Assembly: GCA_951406725.2 (NCBI GenBank) | Contig: OX597827.1 | Location: forward strand, 54,188,001-54,252,000 | Origin: Octopus vulgaris | Taxonomy: Eukaryota | Direction of reading: 5' to 3' | Length of the DNA stretch: 64,000 bases | Shown here: positions 1 through 60,585 of the stretch, one piece after another | Layout of the letters: each line of letters opens with the position of its first letter | Numbering within the stretch: the stretch's first letter is position 1 | Notes under the pieces: generated by a model | Databases searched by the model: none | Told to the model about the DNA's origin: nothing | What the model saw: only the letters and a program-made list of their open reading frames with translations | Program-made: the position numbers and the translations under genes

Positions 1-132
1 AACAAAAGAAATTTCTGTTATGAGAACTAGAGTGATGGAAAATGCAATGGATATTTAAAGTATCAAGTTTTCTATCCGACAATGGTCAACTGTAATTTCT
101 TCTCTGTTGAAGACATTAATATCTGTGACATA

Positions 133-290
133 CCATAAATCCTTGAGTATAATCCGCACTTTTTTCCCCAAATTTAAAGGTCAAAATCCGTAGTGCATAC
201 TATATATGAGGTTAAAAACGAAAATTATCTTCTAAGCAAAGTCCGAGTCTCTATTTGCTGTCCGGCAATGTTTATTCAGACACATTTAGA
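133..290 (+). mobile_element. Truncated left end of pogo/Tigger-type DNA transposon (same family as 4360-5335)
   Basis: TA + CCATAAATCCTTGAGTATAATCCGCAC terminus; ~140 bp align by eye with 4360-4502. Confidence 0.8.
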
Positions 291-1989
291 AATCAGTAAC
301 CATATTGCTTGTTTAGCTAAGTGGTCCCATGATTTAGAAAATAAGAACTAGAATACAACTGTTAGGTGTCTCACAGACAATAATAGTTTCTTATATTGTC
401 ACAAATCTTCTGATTTATATGAAGGGTGACAGTTGCTTGAATTGACTGCAGTATATTTATGTTTTGTATTTTATAAATGCTCATGGAAACAAAAGGCAAA
501 GTCTAACTTGTTAAGATTTAAACTCAGAAAATATTTAGTGAGACAAAACTGTATTCTGAATGTTATTTGATCTAGTTAAGATAACAGTACTATAGAGGGT
601 AATGAATTCCTGTTTACTCTACAATAGATTTGTTATTGTTTTTGTAAGCTCACAATGTATTTAAATATCTACTGTTAAAATACTGAACTGTACCTCCTCA
701 TATAGTTTATCTTATAGCTAGGCAAACTTAACAAATGAGTTTAGTGGCTTTGGTACAGTAATGGTGCTCCTTTAGCTTGGAGGTTGATTGCATAAGGGTC
801 TTGACACTAATTAAATAACAACAAAGTTTTTTATTTACAACCTATATTGCCAATATGATAGAATATCAAAGAAAAGTGTGCTTGGTGGAACCCATCTTAG
901 TAAGGTGAAGTTTTAGATACAAATTATGAGGGAATATTAATATCTTAAGCTAACAACTGAAAATCAGGTTATACACTCAGTCAGCCTGAATATTACATCA
1001 TCACTGCAGTCATCAAGTTAAAAGGATGCAGAGAGTACTTGCAGTTAATGTTACAATAACAAACAAAAAAAAAATGTAAAATAAAAATAATAAATTTTCC
1101 TAAAATTTGGTAATTCATTTTAAACAACTGTTGAAATATTATTTTCTTTCCATTTCCTAAAAATAAAGAAACATCAAAAATATTCCCTACTCTTGTAATA
1201 TCAACTGATGTTGAAAATATAAACAAATATGTAATTTTATCAAAATTACTAGAGATAAATTCTATCAGTCGTGCTAATTTCATTTGAGATATTTCCAAAA
1301 CCACACACATAAAACGCATGTTGGCTTCCTTCAGTAGCTTAAATACATCAAATATTATAGCATCTCTTCAACCTTTAATAATTCCAATGAGTCTATGTTA
1401 AATAAATAAACATTTACAGTTAGGTAGTATAGTGGTACTTGATAAGGTGAGTGTTTTATATTAAATCATTTATGGGCATTATGATCATTTATCATACCTG
1501 CTGCAACTTTTTTTGACTGTGCCTCTGTGCAAGGCATTTAATTCTACATTACCTCAGTTAATCAAGCAAGAGATTCAGTCCAAGCTTGTCTGAGAAAAAT
1601 GATGGATGATAATGATGATGACAGTGGTGGTGGCGGCTGCTGCCATTGCCGACAAGTGCCACACCCAGAAGATTTCACCTCTTAATGCTACAGAAATGAA
1701 AATTTCATACTTTTGCCTAACTGATATGAGAAAAATTTTAAAACAAATATGTAAGCAATGTACATTTGTGTTTGTACATGCACACGCATTCATATGTACA
1801 TGTGAATATAATATAATATATATATGTGCACACACACACACACACATATACACTTAACACATATACATCAAGAAAACTTGCCCTAACATGTTTATATGTG
1901 ATGAGTTTATAATGGCTAAAATCTTAGGTGAGTATGGTGATGCAAATGTCTCGGTAGATGACAATGAACTTAGTGTGGAGAAAAAGATG

Positions 1990-2219
1990 TTAACCCTTTC
2001 GTTACCAACCCGGCTGAAACCGGCTCTGGCTCTGTAGTACAAATGTCTTCTTTCCATAAGTTTTGAATTAAAATCTTCCTCCAAACCTTAGTCACAATTT
2101 ATGTTCCTAATACTAGCTTAATGATAATGAAGTTATTCTACTAAATTCTTTGTTATATTTAAAATTAATTGAAAGAAACACAGAACATCTCAACAGCAAT
2201 ATGGTAACAAAAGGGTTAA
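1990..2219. mobile_element. piggyBac-type MITE (family 1)
   Basis: TTAA-CCCTTTCGTTACC ... GGTAACAAAAGGG-TTAA: terminal inverted repeats with TTAA target-site duplication. Confidence 0.85.
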
Positions 2220-2579
2220 TTTCTGGAAGAAAAAAATAGGCAACTATCTGGAGCTTGTTAAAACCCATTTTGTAATTCACAGTCAATAATATTAGAATCT
2301 GTTAAGAGATCTTGCCCAAATATTTAAATTATGAAACTACATACATGTGAAGGTGCATGGTCTAGTAGTTAGATCATGGTTTCAATTCCCAGACTGGCCA
2401 GTGCATTGTGTCCTTCAGTAAAACACTTTATTTCTCATAATTGCAATCCATTCAGAGAAAATGTAGTAATGATGATTACTTATACACCAGGAAAACCAGA
2501 TAACTGGCCTTTATGAATCCTGGGACTAGAGACAGTAATGTACAGGGGTCGACATTTACATTTTTATTTTTTTGCTACA

Positions 2580-2762
2580 CACTGCTGGTGGTTAAAAGCA
2601 CCCAACATGCAGTGTAAAGTGGTTGGTGTTAGAAAAGCCTTCAGCCATAGGAACTATGCCAGAACAAACAACAGATTTTGGTGCAGACCCTGGCCTTACT
2701 AGATTCTATGAAACTGTCTGACCCATGCCAGCATGGAAAATGGACGTTAAACAATGGTGATA
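2580..2762 (+). mobile_element. Retroposon fragment with RTE-type 3' tail
   Basis: AAAAGCACCC...GTGGTTGGTGTTAG...ACCCATGCCAGCATGGAAAATGGACGTTAAAC motif repeated many times in the window. Confidence 0.7.
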
Positions 2763-2772
2763 ATACATTTAT

Positions 2773-2952
2773 CAGGCATGGTACCAGGAATTTTTCGAAG
2801 GGAGGGCACAAGGTTAGAAGGGAATACAATTCCAGGAGAAAAGGACACAATAACATTATTTAGAAGGGCACACTTCTTTTCTTGAGGGGGCTCACATGCT
2901 CTTCACCCCCCCCCCCACCTCACCACCACCACCACACCAGGATCTGCCTCTG
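2773..2952. mobile_element. Degenerate GC-rich MITE (CAGGGGCGGATCCAGG-like termini)
   Basis: CAGGCATGGTACCAGG ... GATCTGCCTCTG imperfect TIRs around G/C runs; no clear TSD. Confidence 0.4.
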
Positions 2953-4063
2953 TTTATATATGTCTACCAACTTTTTCAAGCATTACAGAGGTGAACTGTA
3001 TGGATTCTGGAATTTAGTATGGTGCTTATTATTTCTGTCTCAATTCAGCTCTTCATTTGTTCTATTTTGTTAACTATAACAATAATTTGCATGTTCACTT
3101 TCAACTGAATTGAGTTGATGTGTGTGTACATAGTTCCACAATTTATAAACCTAGGCAAGATTCTCTTGGCAGTTGTAATAAATATAATCAACTCTTAATT
3201 ACAAATGCGACTTACAAACTGTAACTCACAATGGTTGATATCTTGCTTTTGCAATGACTTCATATTCTGGAATGAAAATAAAACTCAAGGCTTTGTTTTA
3301 CTTCCATTAAGCTTAACTGTTGTTAAAAGAAGGCTTAGAAAAGGATTAACAGGAATATAACACAATCCAAGAACTTAATCTTTAATGCTGTAACAGTTTA
3401 GATTTAAATAATTCAACTGCTTTTGAGCATTTTTTTTTAAAGTTGATGTAATTTACTAGTTCTCTCCACCAAATTTCAGGCCTTGTGCCTCTGTTAGAAA
3501 TCAATATTTTTAAAATATTGTGTGTGTATGTCAAGTTTTAAGATTGCATAGATAAAATCAAAGCTCTCTTCAGTTTTACATTCATTTGTCATGCCTACAT
3601 GGATATGATGTGTAAAGTTAAGGAATAAATGTTTTTACAGCTGAATGATACTCATAATGCTCTTTGATATATCTTTGCAATAGTGTGTGTATGTACGCAC
3701 ACACACACTGCTAAAACAAACACATATACTGGTTTATTATTGTCCCCATTTTGTCCCAGATAACGGTTGAGAAAGCTTGACTGCTATGGAAGTTGAATGT
3801 AATTTGAAATAATTTTGCAATAAAGTAATACAGAAAAAAAGCTCATATTTATTTCATACTATAAGATAATGTTATTGAAGTTTTAGAAGAAACTTAGAAC
3901 TATTTGCCTCAAAATGAAGCAGCAATGTGGTAATTAATTCTGTAACTGATTTGTTTTACTGCTTATCTTATTAAACTTCGGTATAAGGTTGAAAATTAGC
4001 CAAATCAAATTATTGAAATGGGTTATTTACTTATTTGTTTTAATTCTTTATTATTATTATTAT

Positions 4064-4262
4064 GGTGGCAAACTGGCAGAATAATTAGCACGCTGGGCGA
4101 AATGCTTAGCAGTATTTCATCTGTCGTTAGGTTTTGAGTGCGAATGCTGCTGAGGTTGACTTTGCCTTTCATCCTTTCGGGGTCGATAAAATTAGAACCA
4201 GTTACATACTGGGGTTGATGTAATCAACTTAATCCTTCCCCACAAATTTGAAAGGATTATTG
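4064..4262 (+). mobile_element. tRNA-derived SINE with Meta-like central domain
   Basis: TGGCAGAATAATTAGCAC head; GTTGACTTTGCCTTTCATCCTTTCGGGGTCGATAAA core; (ATT/ATC)n tail; multiple copies in window. Confidence 0.8.
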
Positions 4263-4359
4263 ATATTATCATTATCATCATCATCAACATTATTTTCCAA
4301 TTGATTTGCATTTTATTTCATCTTTCAACTGGGTCTCAACCAGAGCCTTAAGGCACTTA

Positions 4360-5335
4360 GTGTAAATCCTCGAGTATAATGTATAATCCACATTTTTTCC
4401 CCAAAATTTAAAGGTCAGAATCCCTAGTGCATATTATATACTAGGTTAAAAATGAAAAATATTTTCTAAGCAATGTCCAAGTCTCTCTTTGCTGTCTGGC
4501 AATTTGTGATGCATTTTGTGATGTCAGGCGCGAAAATACCTTAAGCTAAGCCTGAAAGCAATGATGTCGTAAAAGAATCACCCATAACTTGCAGTAAACA
4601 ACATTTATTAAATTAAAAGTATTCAGATCACAGAATAACATGTAACAAAAACAATTTGCAAACATATTTACATTCCCATATAACAATTAAGAACATCACC
4701 ATTATTGTATTACGCATGCACAGAAGCGTTTTTTCGACTAGGTGCAGCTGGCTTAATTACGCACAAATTGTGCTTAATAGTTTAGTGCTAAATAGTTCGT
4801 CCTGCTGTTTGTATTGGCAATTTGCATCGCATCATTACTGTGACAAACAATAGATACTTAATTGAATACAAGTATTAAATGTTTGAACTACTGTGGGTAT
4901 TTACTAGGGGTTTTATAAATGGGACTTAAACCTGTACATTAATCTCCAATAAAACATTTTATACATTACATGCCCATAAAATGCCTCATAGATCTTATTC
5001 AGCTATGTTTAAATTTGAAGTTATATCATATGCTGAAGAGCATGGTAATAGGGCCGCCGGAAGTAAATTTGATGTTGATGAAAGCAATGCCAGGTTATGG
5101 AGAAGAAATAAAGATGAAATTAAACAGATACCAAAGATAAAGAAGGCAAGAAGGCAGTAATAAAGGATGTTACCGTATACAATTTTACAAACCAAGGACG
5201 TTATATAGACCTCCTTGACTCAAGTTAGAGAAGGGGTGCATATTATACACAAGGTTTAGATTTTTCAGAGGTACAGCCCCCTAAAAATTCTCTGCGTATT
5301 ACACTCAAGTGCAGACTATACTCAAGGATTTACGG
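4360..5335 (+). mobile_element. Non-autonomous pogo-type (Tc1/mariner superfamily) DNA transposon
   Basis: TIRs GTAAATCCTCGAGTATA ... TATACTCAAGGATTTACGG, flanked by TA; internal transposase N-terminal remnant. Confidence 0.85.
4981..5160 (+). CDS. 59-aa mini-ORF, Brinker-type HTH DNA-binding domain of a pogo transposase (transposon-derived; expression unknown)
   Basis: Hand translation MPHRSYSAMFKFEVISYAEEHGNRAAGSKFDVDESNARLWRRNKDEIKQIPKIKKARRQ*; RSYxxxFKxxVxxYAE..N..A...F.V.E.N.R.WR matches the BrkDBD of POGK-like transposases. Confidence 0.7.
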   Translation: MPHRSYSAMFKFEVISYAEEHGNRAAGSKFDVDESNARLWRRNKDEIKQIPKIKKARRQ

Positions 5336-6329
5336 TATATATTAGATGGAGAGAATCTTCTCGAGAATGTGAGTGGTTGATGTCAACAATTTTTTGAGTC
5401 ACAAAGATGGCTGGTTTCCTAGGGATCTGGTCAAAAGATTTGTCAATACCTTGCCTGTAGTAGAAAGGATTAGTATTATTACTCAAGACCTCATAAAGAG
5501 TGGGTTATTTACTGCGTCTTTTTTCTTCTAGTTATTGCAAATAGTAGTCATTATTTATAAAGATAAAATAACTTCAACATCATCTACCCAATGAAAAGTA
5601 CTCTATGCTAACTTACACATGGTAAAATCTAACCTTTGAAAACAGTAAGCTTTATGAAAATGTCAAGCCATTTTCTGGAACATTTTGTGTGAAGGAGTTT
5701 TCAGTACAGTGTATATAGTTGTATCAATACTGGAAAAAAAAATTTATTTTAGTTATTATCAAAAATTTTAAGTTATCCATTCCTTTTGTAATAAATTTCA
5801 AGTTATGATAAGAGTACTGGTAGCTAAGTTCTTAATTTAGTTAATTAATGATTCAATACATAGATCCTAAATTAGACAATTCAGGAATAGGCACTATACT
5901 ATGGTGCCATTGTGCAAACTTTCTTCTGTTTTATATCATAGTCCATTCATGGGTTATGGCCTGTGTCAGGATGAGGTTGCTATGGCAGACCAGCTCTAAG
6001 AAATCGGGCAACTGTTTGAATGTTTATAACTACCTGAGCCAAGCTAGCATGTCGAAATATTTTAATAAATTTTATCGTTGCCTCTTATTTTCTATTTACC
6101 TTTTTAAAATGCTTAAAATATTTTATTGTAACATTTGGTTCACAACTGATTTAGAGAAGTAAAGCTTTGATATAGTCAAAGTATTTTGATTATGTTCATG
6201 ATGACAATATGTCAGTTCTATTTGTGTCAGTTGTGCAGTTAACCCCTCTTTTTTTTTATTAGTTATATTAATGTGTAAGGCTTTATGATAGAGCAGCTCT
6301 TGACTTCAGTAAATAATTCATTCTGGCTT

Positions 6330-6402
6330 CCCAGATCCCCGGTCGAACCGTCCAACCCATGCTAGCATGGAGAACAGACGTTAAACGATGATGATGATGA
6401 TG
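6330..6402 (+). mobile_element. Short, young 5'-truncated RTE-type 3' tail
   Basis: GGTCGAACCGTCCAACCCATGCTAGCATGGAGAACAGACGTTAAACG(ATG)n; CpGs retained. Confidence 0.75.
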
Positions 6403-6736
6403 AATGGGATTATTTCATTATTTTGAACTGAAAAGCAGTGTAATCCAGACAATTTGTAGCAAGGACTGAAGTATTGATTGACTGATACATTAAATGGTTG
6501 AATTCAGTTAAAGAATTGGAAAGCCTATGGATAAAAAAAAAAATTAGAAACCCTTAATGATAATTAGATTATTCAGTAGGGCTACATGTGAACTACTTCA
6601 ATATTTATGACAGGTCAAAAACATAACAGATTTTCTTTTTTGATTTCCAAATTATCCCTAAAAAAAATCAAACTCTGACATGAGAATTTAATGCTCTTTT
6701 GCAGTGTAAATTATATTTTTTAAACTTACTTTACAG

Positions 6737-6839
6737 ATTTGTTTTTAATGTAATAATGTATATTTGTTTAAACTATTTTCTTTTTTCCTTTTTCAGGTAA
6801 GTGACTGTGTTTTTGAGTGCTTTTGATATCTTGGTAAGT
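6737..6839 (+). promoter_or_regulatory. Candidate recursive splice site (AG|GT at 6796/6797) with 37-nt cryptic RS-exon 6797-6833
   Basis: ttttcttttttcctttttCAG|GTAAGT; 58-nt AG-free zone; second donor TTG|GTAAGT at 6834. Confidence 0.65.
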
Positions 6840-7368
6840 AAATTTAATTATTGTCCTGTCTGAGTAGGTGTAAATAAGACACTCTTCTTGCTATTGGCTG
6901 GTAAGAAAAGAGATTACCTTTGTTCAGTTAATATAGAACTGGATGTTTAAGAAAATGATTATTTCGCATGAGGAAAGGAGTTCTGTAAGACTAGGGTAAG
7001 GCACTAGTCTTCAAAATAAATGAGTGAATGTACTTCTGGTGTAATACAGACAAACTGTTGCACTTAAGATTTGAAAATTTCTGAGATAAAAAAAGGCTTA
7101 TTCAGAAAAAGTTTAACTTAGTTGAAATGGAAGAGTTAACTAGACAGTATAGTACAGTGATGGGTCATAAAATTTGTATGTATTGTTTTATCACTTGATG
7201 TCAGCATGAAAAATTTCCATGCTTGGTTGTCCAAGTTTGGGCTTATTGAATTTGTACTTACAGGGTTCTTTCTGACCCATACTTTATGTACCCGTATGTA
7301 TAAGAGGGGCATCAAACCAGCACAGTAGAATAGAAAATGATCAGTGTGTTAGTCTGGGTCAGTTGCCT

Positions 7369-7597
7369 TTAACCCTTTAGTATTCAGATTATTCTGCTAA
7401 ATGTAATGCTTATTTATTCACATTGTTTTGAATTAATCATGCATTATCTCATAGCTTTGAGATTTCAATGAAGTGATTGCTTATTTTTAGAATGACATTG
7501 TAGGGTAGGTATGAGAGGCCAGATCTCACCAGTTTCAACAATAAAACAGGCAGAATATTTGAGTCGGATATGGCCAGTTTAAATACTAAATAGTTAA
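7369..7597. mobile_element. piggyBac-type MITE (family 2)
   Basis: TTAACCCTTTAGTATTCAGA ... TTTAAATACTAAATAGTTAA; homologous to 12379, 38800 and 46503 copies. Confidence 0.8.
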
Positions 7598-8261
7598 ACA
7601 TAGGTACTCCAGCTGTAACTATTCCCTTCTTTACTGTGGATATGCATTTTTAAGATGTAGGATTGTATTCAATGTAGTTCCTATTTAAAAACAGTGAGAA
7701 ATTTGTTAGGAAAAGCATGTTTTTGTCTACACTGGCAGATTGAGACATATTTAACTGGATAGAAGCTTCTCTCTTCTTAACTGTTATGCTCGAACAGTTA
7801 GCAATAGAAGGGGTATCAAGCTGTAATAATACTTGCCTTGTCAAAATACAAATGTATGAACTTACAAGAAAATAAAATTACTACCTATATATCATAGCAT
7901 ATAAAAATAAATACAAAACACAAAAAGTGGAAAAAAACAGGAAAAAAAAACATTTTGTATTCTGTGACTCAGAATCTCAGAAATTGCTGTTATAATTTGT
8001 TACCAACTGTTCTTTTGTCATTTGAACATTATAGTTATTGGAACAACTCTCATAGATATTACTAGACCACTGAAAAATAGAATTCCTACTTAGGAGAAAT
8101 ATTTCACATACATATTCAGTCTACAACATATATTAATTGGTTCAAACATATTGGTCGAAACACCTATTGAGCTGAAAAATTAATGTAGCGGCAACTAAAT
8201 CTCTCTTTTTCTCTTTCTCTCTCCCACTTTCTTTCCCCCTCTCTTTCTCTTTCCCCATCTC

Positions 8262-25961: not shown

Positions 25962-26165
25962 TAATATTTATCCACATTTAAACATGGATATTCTGTTAGA
26001 ACAAACTATACTGTGGTAGATACCATTAGAGAAACTCTCATATTGGCTTTTGGTGCCAAGAGGGCATTTTGCACCAAAAGCCAATATGTGAGTTTCTCTC
26101 ATGGTATCTGCCATGGTATAGTTTTTTCTAATAGAACATCCACATTTAAGTGGGGATAAATATTA
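25962..26165. repeat. Fold-back inverted repeat, 95-bp arms, 14-nt loop
   Basis: 25962-26056 pairs with 26071-26165; the 17 bp next to the loop (ATATTGGCTTTTGGTGC/GCACCAAAAGCCAATAT) are perfect. Confidence 0.9.
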
Positions 26166-41365: not shown

Positions 41366-42892
41366 ATGATAGAATGTATTTTGAGGATTCTTCATGATTA
41401 AAAATATTAAAAGATACTACTTAAAGCCTTGAGACTCAACCTTGCAACAATTTTGTTAATATCTTCTGAAAATATCAAATAAATTTATGTTAATCATTGA
41501 TGTAGGCTTCTGAATTTTATTATTCCATGTGAAACGGTAGGGGATTTGCAAATGGTGACATTTCTTCGTTCTATCCATTATAACTCAATAAATATTCTGG
41601 GTGGGCGTATGATTATGAGACAGGACTGCATTTCAATATTTTTGGTACTTTAAAAGAAGACAAAGTTTATAAACAGTTTTATATCACCATCATCATCATC
41701 AACATTCATTTTCCATGCAAGCATGGGTTGAACCATTTGACAGTATGCAGCAAGCCACAGTGCTATGCTAGGTCTATGCCCTTTCTCATGCCAACCACTT
41801 TGCTGTGTACTGGGAGCTTTTATTACTTTTTCCTTTAGTTTTCCATACCTGACTATTATAGACACTTTGGTATATGTAGATAATTTCTGTTTATTATTAA
41901 AGAAATAACTTTACAGCTGGGTGATTTTTATAAATAACTATTATGCCCTGAATTAAAGTGTAGAGCCTATTTTTCATGTAGTTTAACTAAAACAATGGAT
42001 TTGATTTTACTCAATGCTCATCATAAGCATATATAGCTGTTGTCCTTCTTGAGCAAATATCATATCAAAATATCTATAGATCTTCAGAAAAGTGCTGTTC
42101 TAATTTATTTTGTATCCAAATAGTTCTCTCATAAAATGAGAGAAATCAATCCTCAAGCCATCTGCTCGTGATACCAGAGGGCGCACACTCTCCAGGGATA
42201 CAGGCATCCAGCAACAGGACCTCCGTAATGCTATGGTGGGCCCTGAAGTCTGGTATAACATAGTAAATTCCATTGTCTCGACCACGGTCAAACAATGATG
42301 ATGATTGCCTAAAGTTATTTCCAGAGCTATCAAAATAAGTCATATATCCAAACAAGATGAAAAATACCTTACAATGGAAAGCAGAAGCATGTGTATTATT
42401 ACAAGGTTGGAACAAAATATTGAAATAAGTTTCATTAAAAACTGCAAAATCAGCTTCACTCATTTCTCTCTTTCGTTTGGGTTTACTTATTCATCTTGTT
42501 GTTGTTTGCTAAAGAGTATATATAAGACAACATTGATTATATGCCCATTTCCATCCAATGGTTATGGCAGCGACTGTTTTAATGGAGTTTATCACTGAAG
42601 CTGTTATCCTTATCAAGTTTCTATTCATGACAACAGAAGCCATTGCAAATCTATTTAATTTTGCATAATCAATAATGCAGAAACTGCAGCTGCTGTTGTT
42701 GTCATTTCTGCTATTACTGTTGTTGATTGAATCATTATTTAAAATAATAAAAAGAAAAGTCAGTTTAACTTTATCTCATTCGATAGATTTAAATTGACTC
42801 TAATACTATTACTTCTACCTCTTGCTCTTTCTCCCTCCTCTCCCCTCCCTCCCTCTTTGTAATATATGTATGTATATATATATAATGTGTAT

Positions 42893-49737: not shown

Positions 49738-50333
49738 AGGCATGGAAGGACTGGAAGAACAGTGGTAGCAGGGAATTGTAATGCCAGAAGGGAAGCTAAG
49801 AGACAGGTTTACTTAACAATAGAGAGGAAGCAGATAAAAAATTTGCCAATGTTCTGTATTGTGAAGACCAAAGACTTGAAGTTTTTCCTATTGCAAGACA
49901 GCATGTGAGAGAGAATTGTGATGTCATAGGAGAGAAATGATGTCTGCATGGATGATGGCTCATTTGCATTTAATGAGGCTGCAAGGAGAGTTACTTGGAG
50001 ATGCCACTATGAAAGGTTGCTGAATGAACAGAATGAATGGGAGAAAGAGAGTCTGCTGAATATCAACCCAACAGAGGGACCAGCTATCCGAGTTGACACT
50101 ACCTTGGTAGATGAAGCAATTAAGGGTATGAAGACCAGGAAAGCCACCAGCTCATCAGGAATCACTGCAGAGATGCTTAAAATATCTGGCAGTGTTGGCT
50201 ATAGTCTAGTCACCCGTATAGTCAATCAAGTGATACATAAAGGAGTCATACCCAATGACTGGTATAGCTTGCCAGTCCTTAGTCAAACTGTACAACCCAT
50301 GCCAGCATAGAAAGCAAATGTTAAATGATGATG

Positions 50334-59903: not shown

Positions 59904-60458
59904 TATAAATTGAGTGGAAATCAATCTGGTGAATGTGTTAGTTAATAAGGCATAAGGACAAAATGATTCTCCCCAGACACAACAAAATTAGCATTTATGT
60001 TATAATTCTTCTGAGTTATTACATGCTCTTATCCCAACCCCTGCTAAACAACTTTTCACTCCTTTTGTTATATGTTTTGTATTGTATGCATGGGCTCACA
60101 TAGCTAATATAAAAAGGATTTTTATTATTGTTATTGTTGTTATTTTCCATGTTTTCTTAATTTTTTAAAAATCAATATTTGCACATGTATTTGTAAATAA
60201 TAGTAAAGAGAAAGATAAATAAATAACAAGACATTTTAAAATGTTAATTAGATAGATGTGTTTACATATGACTGATAAAAAGGCTTTGTTTAAGATTATA
60301 TGGTTAGATTAATACTGAGAGTTTATGTAGCATAAAAGTATTTTCTAAAGCTATATGCAGTGCAGCAAGTGCTATAGATTGTTTATACATCAGAGTTATT
60401 ATTTACAGCTAAATGAAAGAATTACACAGCTAGTTTAGTAATGTAATAGATTAAACAG

Positions 60459-60585
60459 ATTTTTAAAAATATGTTTAATACCTGATTTATATTCAATAAT
60501 TATTACTGTTATAAAATTTTAATTTTTTTTTTCTCTCTACTTTTAGGTAAGCAGTCCCATAATTTCTTCTGGTTGTATGGTAATG
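60459..60585 (+). promoter_or_regulatory. Candidate recursive splice site (AG|GT at 60546/60547) with 33-nt cryptic exon 60547-60579
   Basis: ttttttttttctctctactttTAG|GTAAGC; 86-nt AG-free zone; second donor ATG|GTAATG at 60580. Confidence 0.6.

What the first reader, a model, noticed from the sequence alone, without database searches (positions are those of the whole stretch)
6737..6839. Textbook ratchet point with a poison-type 37-nt cryptic exon
Seen: CAG|GTAAGT is a consensus acceptor and consensus donor at once, behind a 58-nt AG-free zone, with another GTAAGT donor at 6834. The enclosed 37 nt carry stop codons in all three frames (TGA, TAA, TGA). Known: vertebrate RS-exons often contain premature stops and trigger NMD when included. 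The site is not part of any repeat I recognised.
Basis: partly seen in the sequence, partly recalled or inferred. Interest (0 to 1): 0.75.

Follow-up and report, generated by a model that had tools for sequence, protein, structure and literature searches.

The report
Intron ratchet point with spliced intermediate
In a gene-poor stretch of an animal genome (likely an octopus), a fused intron-end/intron-start signal marks the exact base where assemblies of three likely RNA samples begin with other sequence attached, so a very long intron is likely removed piece by piece here, a mechanism known from flies and vertebrates for which we found no report in molluscs.

Summary
The motif is rarer than chance, and a second such site lies on the same strand at 60545. 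Contigs from 3 of 3 putative RNA runs (two studies) start aligning exactly at the AG (6795), with 28, 28 and 4 unaligned letters in front, and run unspliced through the second donor. A large run from another organism is continuous across the site. This is what the first intermediate of recursive splicing would look like. Not shown: the upstream exon (its letters were not printed), re-splicing, lariats, sawtooth, the host gene, deep conservation. A cryptic last exon remains a rival. 'Poison' is unsupported: 26% of GTAAGT-started 37-mers have stops in all three frames, and no inclusion was seen. The octopus identity is recalled from repeats, not tested. The scan noted similar sites in other genomes; the four comparable notes shown report no RNA data. 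Verdict: new member of a known kind.

The parts
6737..6794 (+). AG-free zone with pyrimidine tract (19/20 pyrimidines; TT at -5/-6) and a weak branch-like TTTAA with A at about -27
   Evidence: branch point inferred only; TT at -5/-6 is the fly ratchet-point trait in 10.1101/006163
6795..6796 (+). 3' splice site AG; contigs of 3 of 3 putative RNA runs start aligning at 6795 with unaligned letters in front
   Evidence: table 8, records 3, 10, 27
6797..6802 (+). Ratchet-point half donor GTAAGT; a full AG|GTAAGT donor is inferred to be rebuilt after splicing, because the joined letters end in AG
   Evidence: (alignments include 6795-6796 but not 6794); its use as a donor is not shown
6797..6833 (+). 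Putative 37-nt cryptic RS-exon, not a multiple of three, stops in three frames; no inclusion seen
6834..6839 (+). Second donor TTG|GTAAGT, likely the exon-defining, out-competed donor; read through unspliced by all three contigs
6840..8150 (+). Downstream sequence carried in the putative RNA contigs (unbroken from 6795 to 7415, 7024 and 7307; further separate contigs 7490-7937, 7444-8150, 7626-7941)
   Evidence: table 8
60459..60585 (+). Second ratchet-like site: 86-nt AG-free zone, 19/20 pyrimidines, TAG|GTAAGC at 60544-60552, possible 33-nt exon 60547-60579 ending at a weak GTAATG; 53.75 kb from the first site
   Evidence: sequence only, no reads laid

Best explanation
The site is likely a recursive splice site (ratchet point) in a long + strand intron: contigs of three putative RNA runs begin at its AG with other letters attached and keep the downstream sequence, and the rebuilt AG|GTAAGT donor would then be re-used to remove the next piece of intron. 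Steps: (1) the strong acceptor is recognised, probably helped by exon definition across the 37 nt to the donor at 6834 (inferred from the fly and vertebrate model); (2) an upstream exon ending in AG is spliced to 6797 (inferred from contig geometry; the joined letters were not printed); (3) the rebuilt AG|GTAAGT out-competes TTG|GTAAGT at 6834, so the 37 nt leave with the next intron piece (inferred; no inclusion seen); (4) the next acceptor may be the second site at 60545, 53.75 kb on (inferred from sequence alone).
For:: X1 record 3 (623 nt) aligns 6795-7415 from its letter 29; X3 record 27 (542 nt, other study) aligns 6795-7307 with 28 letters left over on the same side; X2 record 10 aligns 6795-7024 from its letter 5. 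28 letters plus AG = 30, which is the overlap expected of a 31-letter-word assembly graph branching exactly at the junction (inference). X20 record 20 (another organism) runs through 6403-6944 unbroken, so the window's DNA is not a mis-join. All three contigs bridge 6833|6834 with 39 letters on the left and 191-582 on the right; the fused motif is rarer than chance, occurs twice on + and never on -; 6795 and 60545 are the two top + strand acceptors in my own heuristic score. Both have TT at -5/-6, like 196 of 197 fly ratchet points (10.1101/006163); 53.75 kb lies inside the fly segment range of 2.6-63.6 kb; fly RS-exons are about 50 nt (PMC8605326). No host exon found in the window.
Against: The unaligned letters were not shown (977 loose ends hidden), so the upstream exon is unidentified; the left side has 30 letters, one short of the tool's 31-letter rule for bridging, and only 6 in X2. 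The runs' RNA nature is the tool's guess and their library is not on record. Re-splicing, lariats and a sawtooth are not shown, and contigs cannot show them. Contig depth is higher further downstream in X1 and X2 (35 against 12, 28 against 3), which a sawtooth would not give, though those contigs overlap a repeat, X3 shows 5.4 then 4.8, and the tool says depth cannot rank parts. No DNA run of organism A was laid. Conservation is untested beyond one organism about 96% alike. Tables were cut (159 joints, 37,730 pieces hidden), so a minor inclusion form may be missed.
Confidence: 0.75

Rival explanations
1. Cryptic or alternative last exon: the acceptor is used, and the RNA is cleaved and polyadenylated about 1.1 kb or more downstream; GTAAGT is incidental or only occasionally used.
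For:: contigs cover 6795 to at least 8150 in pieces; X1 ends at 7937 (17 letters left over) and X3 at 7941, just after AATAAA at 7871 and 7906; depth is higher downstream in X1 and X2. Such exons occur in long introns of neuronal genes (PMC7997972, passages).
Against: It does not explain a perfect GTAAGT directly behind the AG, nor the second co-oriented site. X2 runs on past 8150; the stops at 7937-7941 fall in an A-rich tract where X2 shows indel differences. AATAAA occurs 110 times on this strand of the window.
Confidence: 0.12
2. Ordinary short exon (for example 5'UTR or poison cassette, 6797-6833) caught before its downstream intron is removed; it is included in mRNA rather than re-spliced away.
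For: A consensus GTAAGT donor 37 nt downstream (1.3% by chance); the same part-spliced intermediate is expected. Included RS-exons are common in deuterostomes (PMC6224609, passages).
Against: All three contigs pass 6833|6834 unbroken and no listed joint or piece ends at 6833 (tables cut, and contigs drop rare forms). The rebuilt donor AG|GTAAGT matches the consensus better than TTG|GTAAGT.
Confidence: 0.06
3. No splicing: organism A's DNA differs from the window just before 6795 (structural variant), or the contigs are assembly artefacts or DNA carried in the runs.
For: RNA status is a guess and no DNA run of organism A was laid; the joined letters were not seen.
Against: The break falls on the AG of the best acceptor in 64 kb in three samples of two studies, and another organism's contig follows the window across it.
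Confidence: 0.04
4. The foreign letters are a trans-spliced leader, or the poly(A) tail of a - strand RNA ending at 6795.
For: The letters were not printed, so neither is excluded directly; either could give a graph branch.
Against: A poly(A) tail would match 15 of the 19 letters at 6776-6794 and should pull the alignment start to 6789 or below (inference; aligner scores unknown). The - strand has no GT at the break. A leader joined to an RNA closed in all three frames within 37 nt is unlikely; I did not establish whether this lineage has leaders (listing only).
Confidence: 0.03

Closest known systems
Drosophila intronic ratchet points with cryptic RS-exons (Ubx, kuz, Bx, luna; 10.1101/006163 whole text read; PMC8605326 part 1 of 6 read)
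   Same: Fused YAG|GTAAGT, strong pyrimidine tract, TT at -5/-6, short out-of-frame cryptic exon with a downstream donor, tens of kb between sites, part-spliced intermediate starting at the AG.
   Different: Another animal lineage (likely octopus, recalled, untested); upstream exon, lariats, sawtooth and deep conservation not shown; the 53.75-kb spacing is near the top of the fly range.
Vertebrate cryptic RS-exons (CADM2 type; Sibley 2015 not read, described through PMC6224609 passages and PMC8605326)
   Same: RS-exon defined, spliced to the preceding exon, then removed by competition between the rebuilt and the downstream donor.
   Different: Such fully skipped sites are rare in vertebrates (about 10 in human in PMC6224609); here two lie in 64 kb. 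A premature-stop or NMD role is not shown here.
Computational RP-site enrichment in large introns of insects and sea urchin (PMC2773006, passages read)
   Same: Sense-strand excess of fused sites: 2 on + and 0 on - here; 0.5-2.2 per 100 kb against about 0.1 on the opposite strand there (different scoring).
   Different: That survey's table lists no mollusc and is sequence only.
Cryptic last exons / intronic polyadenylation (PMC7997972, passages read)
   Same: An intronic acceptor joined to an upstream exon with long read-through downstream.
   Different: They need a cleavage site and no donor at the exon start; no cleavage site is shown here.

Membership tests
Intronic ratchet point (recursive splice site) | [quoted passage not shown] | tested here: met
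Intronic ratchet point (recursive splice site) | TT at -5/-6 of the acceptor | tested here: met
   T6791 and T6792; also T60541 and T60542; trait
Intronic ratchet point (recursive splice site) | RNA joined at the acceptor and continuing into the downstream intron | tested here: met
   table 8: 3 of 3 putative RNA runs; the joined letters are known only by their number
Intronic ratchet point (recursive splice site) | The joined partner is an annotated upstream exon of the host gene | tested here: inconclusive
   letters not printed; no genome held; no host exon found
Intronic ratchet point (recursive splice site) | Re-splicing from the rebuilt donor (lariat starting at G6797) | not testable with these tools
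   only assembled contigs were available
Intronic ratchet point (recursive splice site) | Sawtooth read density across the intron | not testable with these tools
   contig depth is one figure per contig
Intronic ratchet point (recursive splice site) | Lies in a long intron | tested here: inconclusive
   no coding exon found among 210 of 391 open frames scanned or in the exon scan; short or non-coding exons can be missed; intron ends not in view
Intronic ratchet point (recursive splice site) | Local evolutionary conservation of the motif | tested here: inconclusive
   X20 covers 6403-6944 with 20 other letters and 3 gaps in 541; their places are not shown
Cryptic RS-exon | Short exon ending at a downstream donor, absent from mRNA | tested here: inconclusive
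   donor present at 37 nt; read-through and no listed inclusion, tables cut
Poison exon | Inclusion puts a premature stop in a coding frame and triggers NMD | not testable with these tools
   host frame unknown; three-frame stops at chance level, 26%
Cryptic / alternative last exon | Cleavage and polyadenylation site downstream of the acceptor | tested here: inconclusive
   two contigs end at 7937-7941 after AATAAA, a third runs on

The most novel reading that the evidence does not exclude
Cephalopods subdivide their giant introns with fly-type ratchet points, and this one doubles as a switch: the part-spliced RNA is either re-spliced from the rebuilt donor or cleaved and polyadenylated about 1.1 kb downstream, giving a stable truncated transcript, which is why it assembles in three ordinary RNA runs.
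Probability: 0.15. Interest if true: 0.65.

Novelty: new member of a known kind. Interest (0 to 1): 0.42.

Why it matters
Recursive splicing has RNA support in flies and vertebrates and sequence support in other insects and sea urchin. The library searched holds no paper linking it to octopus or, outside reference lists, to cephalopods. If the animal is an octopus, this would be transcript-level support in the third large bilaterian branch, pointing to ratchet points as an old, shared solution to very long introns, and it gives a precise site to test. The mechanism itself would not be new.

Tried and rejected
Whole genome: none held, so no host gene or genome-wide count. No holder is on record as RNA; this blank is not used as evidence. 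The three putative RNA runs have no depth in the bins 5512-6207 and 6440-6787; a part without cover is not used as evidence. A 60-nt AT-rich exon 6737-6796 (upstream AG at 6735, one open frame) was rejected: the contigs do not follow the window left of 6795. Host exons: a heuristic exon scan gave 26 rows, none convincing by eye. Pfam on 150 of 193 + strand and 60 of 198 - strand open frames gave one hit above its cut-off (BrkDBD, 4930-5157) and three below. Rfam: 0 hits. Further ratchet sites between the two: none of the other 11 of 13 + strand YAG|GT sites with >=14/20 pyrimidines matches GTAAGT at more than 4 of 6 letters. Lineage: a LINE-like frame (49930-50307) gave one unnamed relative and none among longer proteins; a repeat motif was in no paper; so 'octopus' stays recalled. 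Earlier notes: none for this genome, this sequence, or octopus plus recursive splicing. Paper searches gave nothing specific. Strong donors at 1447 and 1928 could be the upstream partner but could not be tested.

Full report
Observation. The stretch 6600-7300 has no second match in the window, and in run X20 it shows a depth of about 6-11 against thousands in the flanking repeats, so it is single-copy.

Chance. The fused motif is the unusual part. On the + strand 2 of 5 acceptors with at least 18/20 pyrimidines are followed by GTRAG (0.015 expected), 2 of 70 at 15/20 (0.21) and 2 of 169 at 14/20 (0.51); on the - strand 0 of 131. Neither of two sets of 60 Markov-simulated windows held such a site at 18/20. 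The thresholds were chosen after seeing the site, so these figures flatter it. The second case is at 60545 (TAG|GTAAGC, 86-nt AG-free zone, 19/20 pyrimidines), on the same strand and 53.75 kb away; it was not part of the finding, which makes it the better test. The two sites are the top two + strand acceptors in my own rough score. Other parts are ordinary: 4.1% of AGs have an AG-free zone this long, and stops in all three frames occur in 26% of 37-mers that start with GTAAGT, with two of the three stops overlapping the donor motif. A second GTAAGT within 37 nt is a 1.3% event.

Context. The window is 33% GC, rich in microsatellites and interspersed repeats, and I found no host exon in it. An exon scan gave 26 unconvincing rows; Pfam on 210 of 391 open frames gave one hit above cut-off, a Brinker DNA-binding fragment that I take from recall to be a transposon remnant; Rfam gave none. 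Short or non-coding exons could be missed. No genome is held. The repeats look to me like octopus SINEs, but that is recalled; three attempts to test the lineage found nothing.

RNA evidence. Of 24 runs listed I laid four on 4700-8150: X1, X2 and X3 (organism A, two studies; RNA is the tool's guess, library not on record) and X20 (organism E, 1,503 million letters, kind not on record, covering 29 of 30 bins). In all three putative RNA runs one contig begins aligning at 6795. X1 record 3 aligns from its letter 29 to 7415; X3 record 27 aligns 6795-7307 with 28 letters left on the same side; X2 record 10 aligns from its letter 5 to 7024. X20 record 20 runs unbroken from 6403 to 6944. I infer that an upstream exon ending in AG is spliced to 6797: the match includes AG but not C6794, the - strand offers no GT there, and 28 + 2 = 30 letters is the overlap left when a 31-letter-word graph branches exactly at a junction. 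All three contigs go on unspliced across the second donor, with 39 letters on the left and 191-582 on the right. Limits: the unaligned letters were not printed (977 loose ends, 159 joints, 122 differences and 37,730 pieces were hidden); 30 letters is one short of the tool's bridging rule; contigs show neither strand nor level and drop rare forms; no DNA run of organism A was laid.

Mechanism. The best reading (0.75) is recursive splicing as described in flies. The acceptor is recognised, probably with the 37 nt defined as a cryptic exon by the donor at 6834; the upstream exon is joined to 6797; the rebuilt AG|GTAAGT out-competes TTG|GTAAGT; and the next piece of intron, perhaps up to 60546, is removed. 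Shown: the anatomy, its rarity, and contigs that start at the AG with other letters attached. Inferred: the partner exon, exon definition, donor competition, re-splicing, and the link to 60545. Matches to the fly class: TT at -5/-6 at both sites (196 of 197 fly sites; 10.1101/006163, whole text), spacing within 2.6-63.6 kb, and an RS-exon near the roughly 50 nt given in PMC8605326 (part 1 of 6).

Rivals. A cryptic last exon (0.12) gives the same junction. X1 and X3 contigs end at 7937 and 7941 after AATAAA at 7871 and 7906, and depth is higher downstream in X1 and X2. Against it, X2 runs on past 8150, those ends fall in an A-rich tract with indels, the deeper contigs overlap a repeat, AATAAA occurs 110 times on this strand, and the fused donor and second site stay unexplained (PMC7997972, passages). 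An ordinary included exon (0.06) is weakened by the unbroken read-through. A DNA difference or artefact (0.04) would have to fall on the best acceptor of the window. A leader or - strand poly(A) tail (0.03) cannot be excluded without the letters. A 60-nt exon at 6737-6796 is rejected because the contigs leave the window at 6795.

Poison role and conservation. Neither is supported nor refuted. No inclusion was seen, the host frame is unknown, and the stops are at chance level. X20 differs by 20 letters and 3 gaps in 541 with the places hidden; the differences shown nearest the site in organism A are at 6846 and 6847, just outside the second donor.

Known and new. Recursive splicing is established in flies and vertebrates (PMC6224609, passages) and predicted from sequence in insects and sea urchin (PMC2773006, passages). 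Searches of the open library gave 0 papers for recursive splicing with octopus, 1 with cephalopod, both terms in its reference list only, and 2 with mollus- (listing only, not read). Subscription papers and supplements were not searched, so a list of cephalopod sites could exist unseen. This scan has 93 notes on similar words in at least 7 genomes; of the 8 shown, four describe long-intron sites and each reports no RNA data (unchecked, not used as support). I file this as a new member of a known kind: a well-formed ratchet point with contig-level support for the first step, in what is probably a mollusc. Interest 0.42.

Noticed in passing
window 60459-60585 (+): Second ratchet-like site, TAG|GTAAGC, with 86-nt AG-free zone and a possible 33-nt exon (one frame open) ending at a weak GTAATG; no reads laid.
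   Followed up: partly
window 6324-6402: A repeat tail ending in GAT units is missing from the X20 contig (organism E), which maps 5629-6323 and 6403-6944 with 4 letters between: likely an insertion that differs between the organisms.
   Followed up: no
window 4930-5157 (+): Brinker DNA-binding domain fragment (Pfam PF09607, E 6e-6) next to a repeat; probably a DNA-transposon remnant (recalled), covered by contigs that differ from the window by 6-8%.
   Followed up: partly
window 1445-1452 and 1926-1933 (+): Two strong donor-like sites (AG|GTGAGT) upstream of the finding without convincing acceptors; possible partners, untested.
   Followed up: no
window 6901, 6985, 6996 (+): Three further GTAAG motifs within 200 nt downstream of the site, a local cluster of decoy-like donors.
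   Followed up: no
window 60450-60479: Near-perfect 30-nt palindrome at the start of the second site's AG-free zone (self-blast).
   Followed up: no
window 25965-26156: Long inverted repeat centred near 26065 seen by eye.
   Followed up: no
window 49780-50265 and 42150-42300 (+): LINE-like fragments by eye (recalled); the first has one unnamed relative at 65% identity.
   Followed up: partly
window 7359-7383: X1's contig lacks 25 letters here, and A-run alleles differ at 7930-7942 in X2: polymorphism within organism A or against the window.
   Followed up: no
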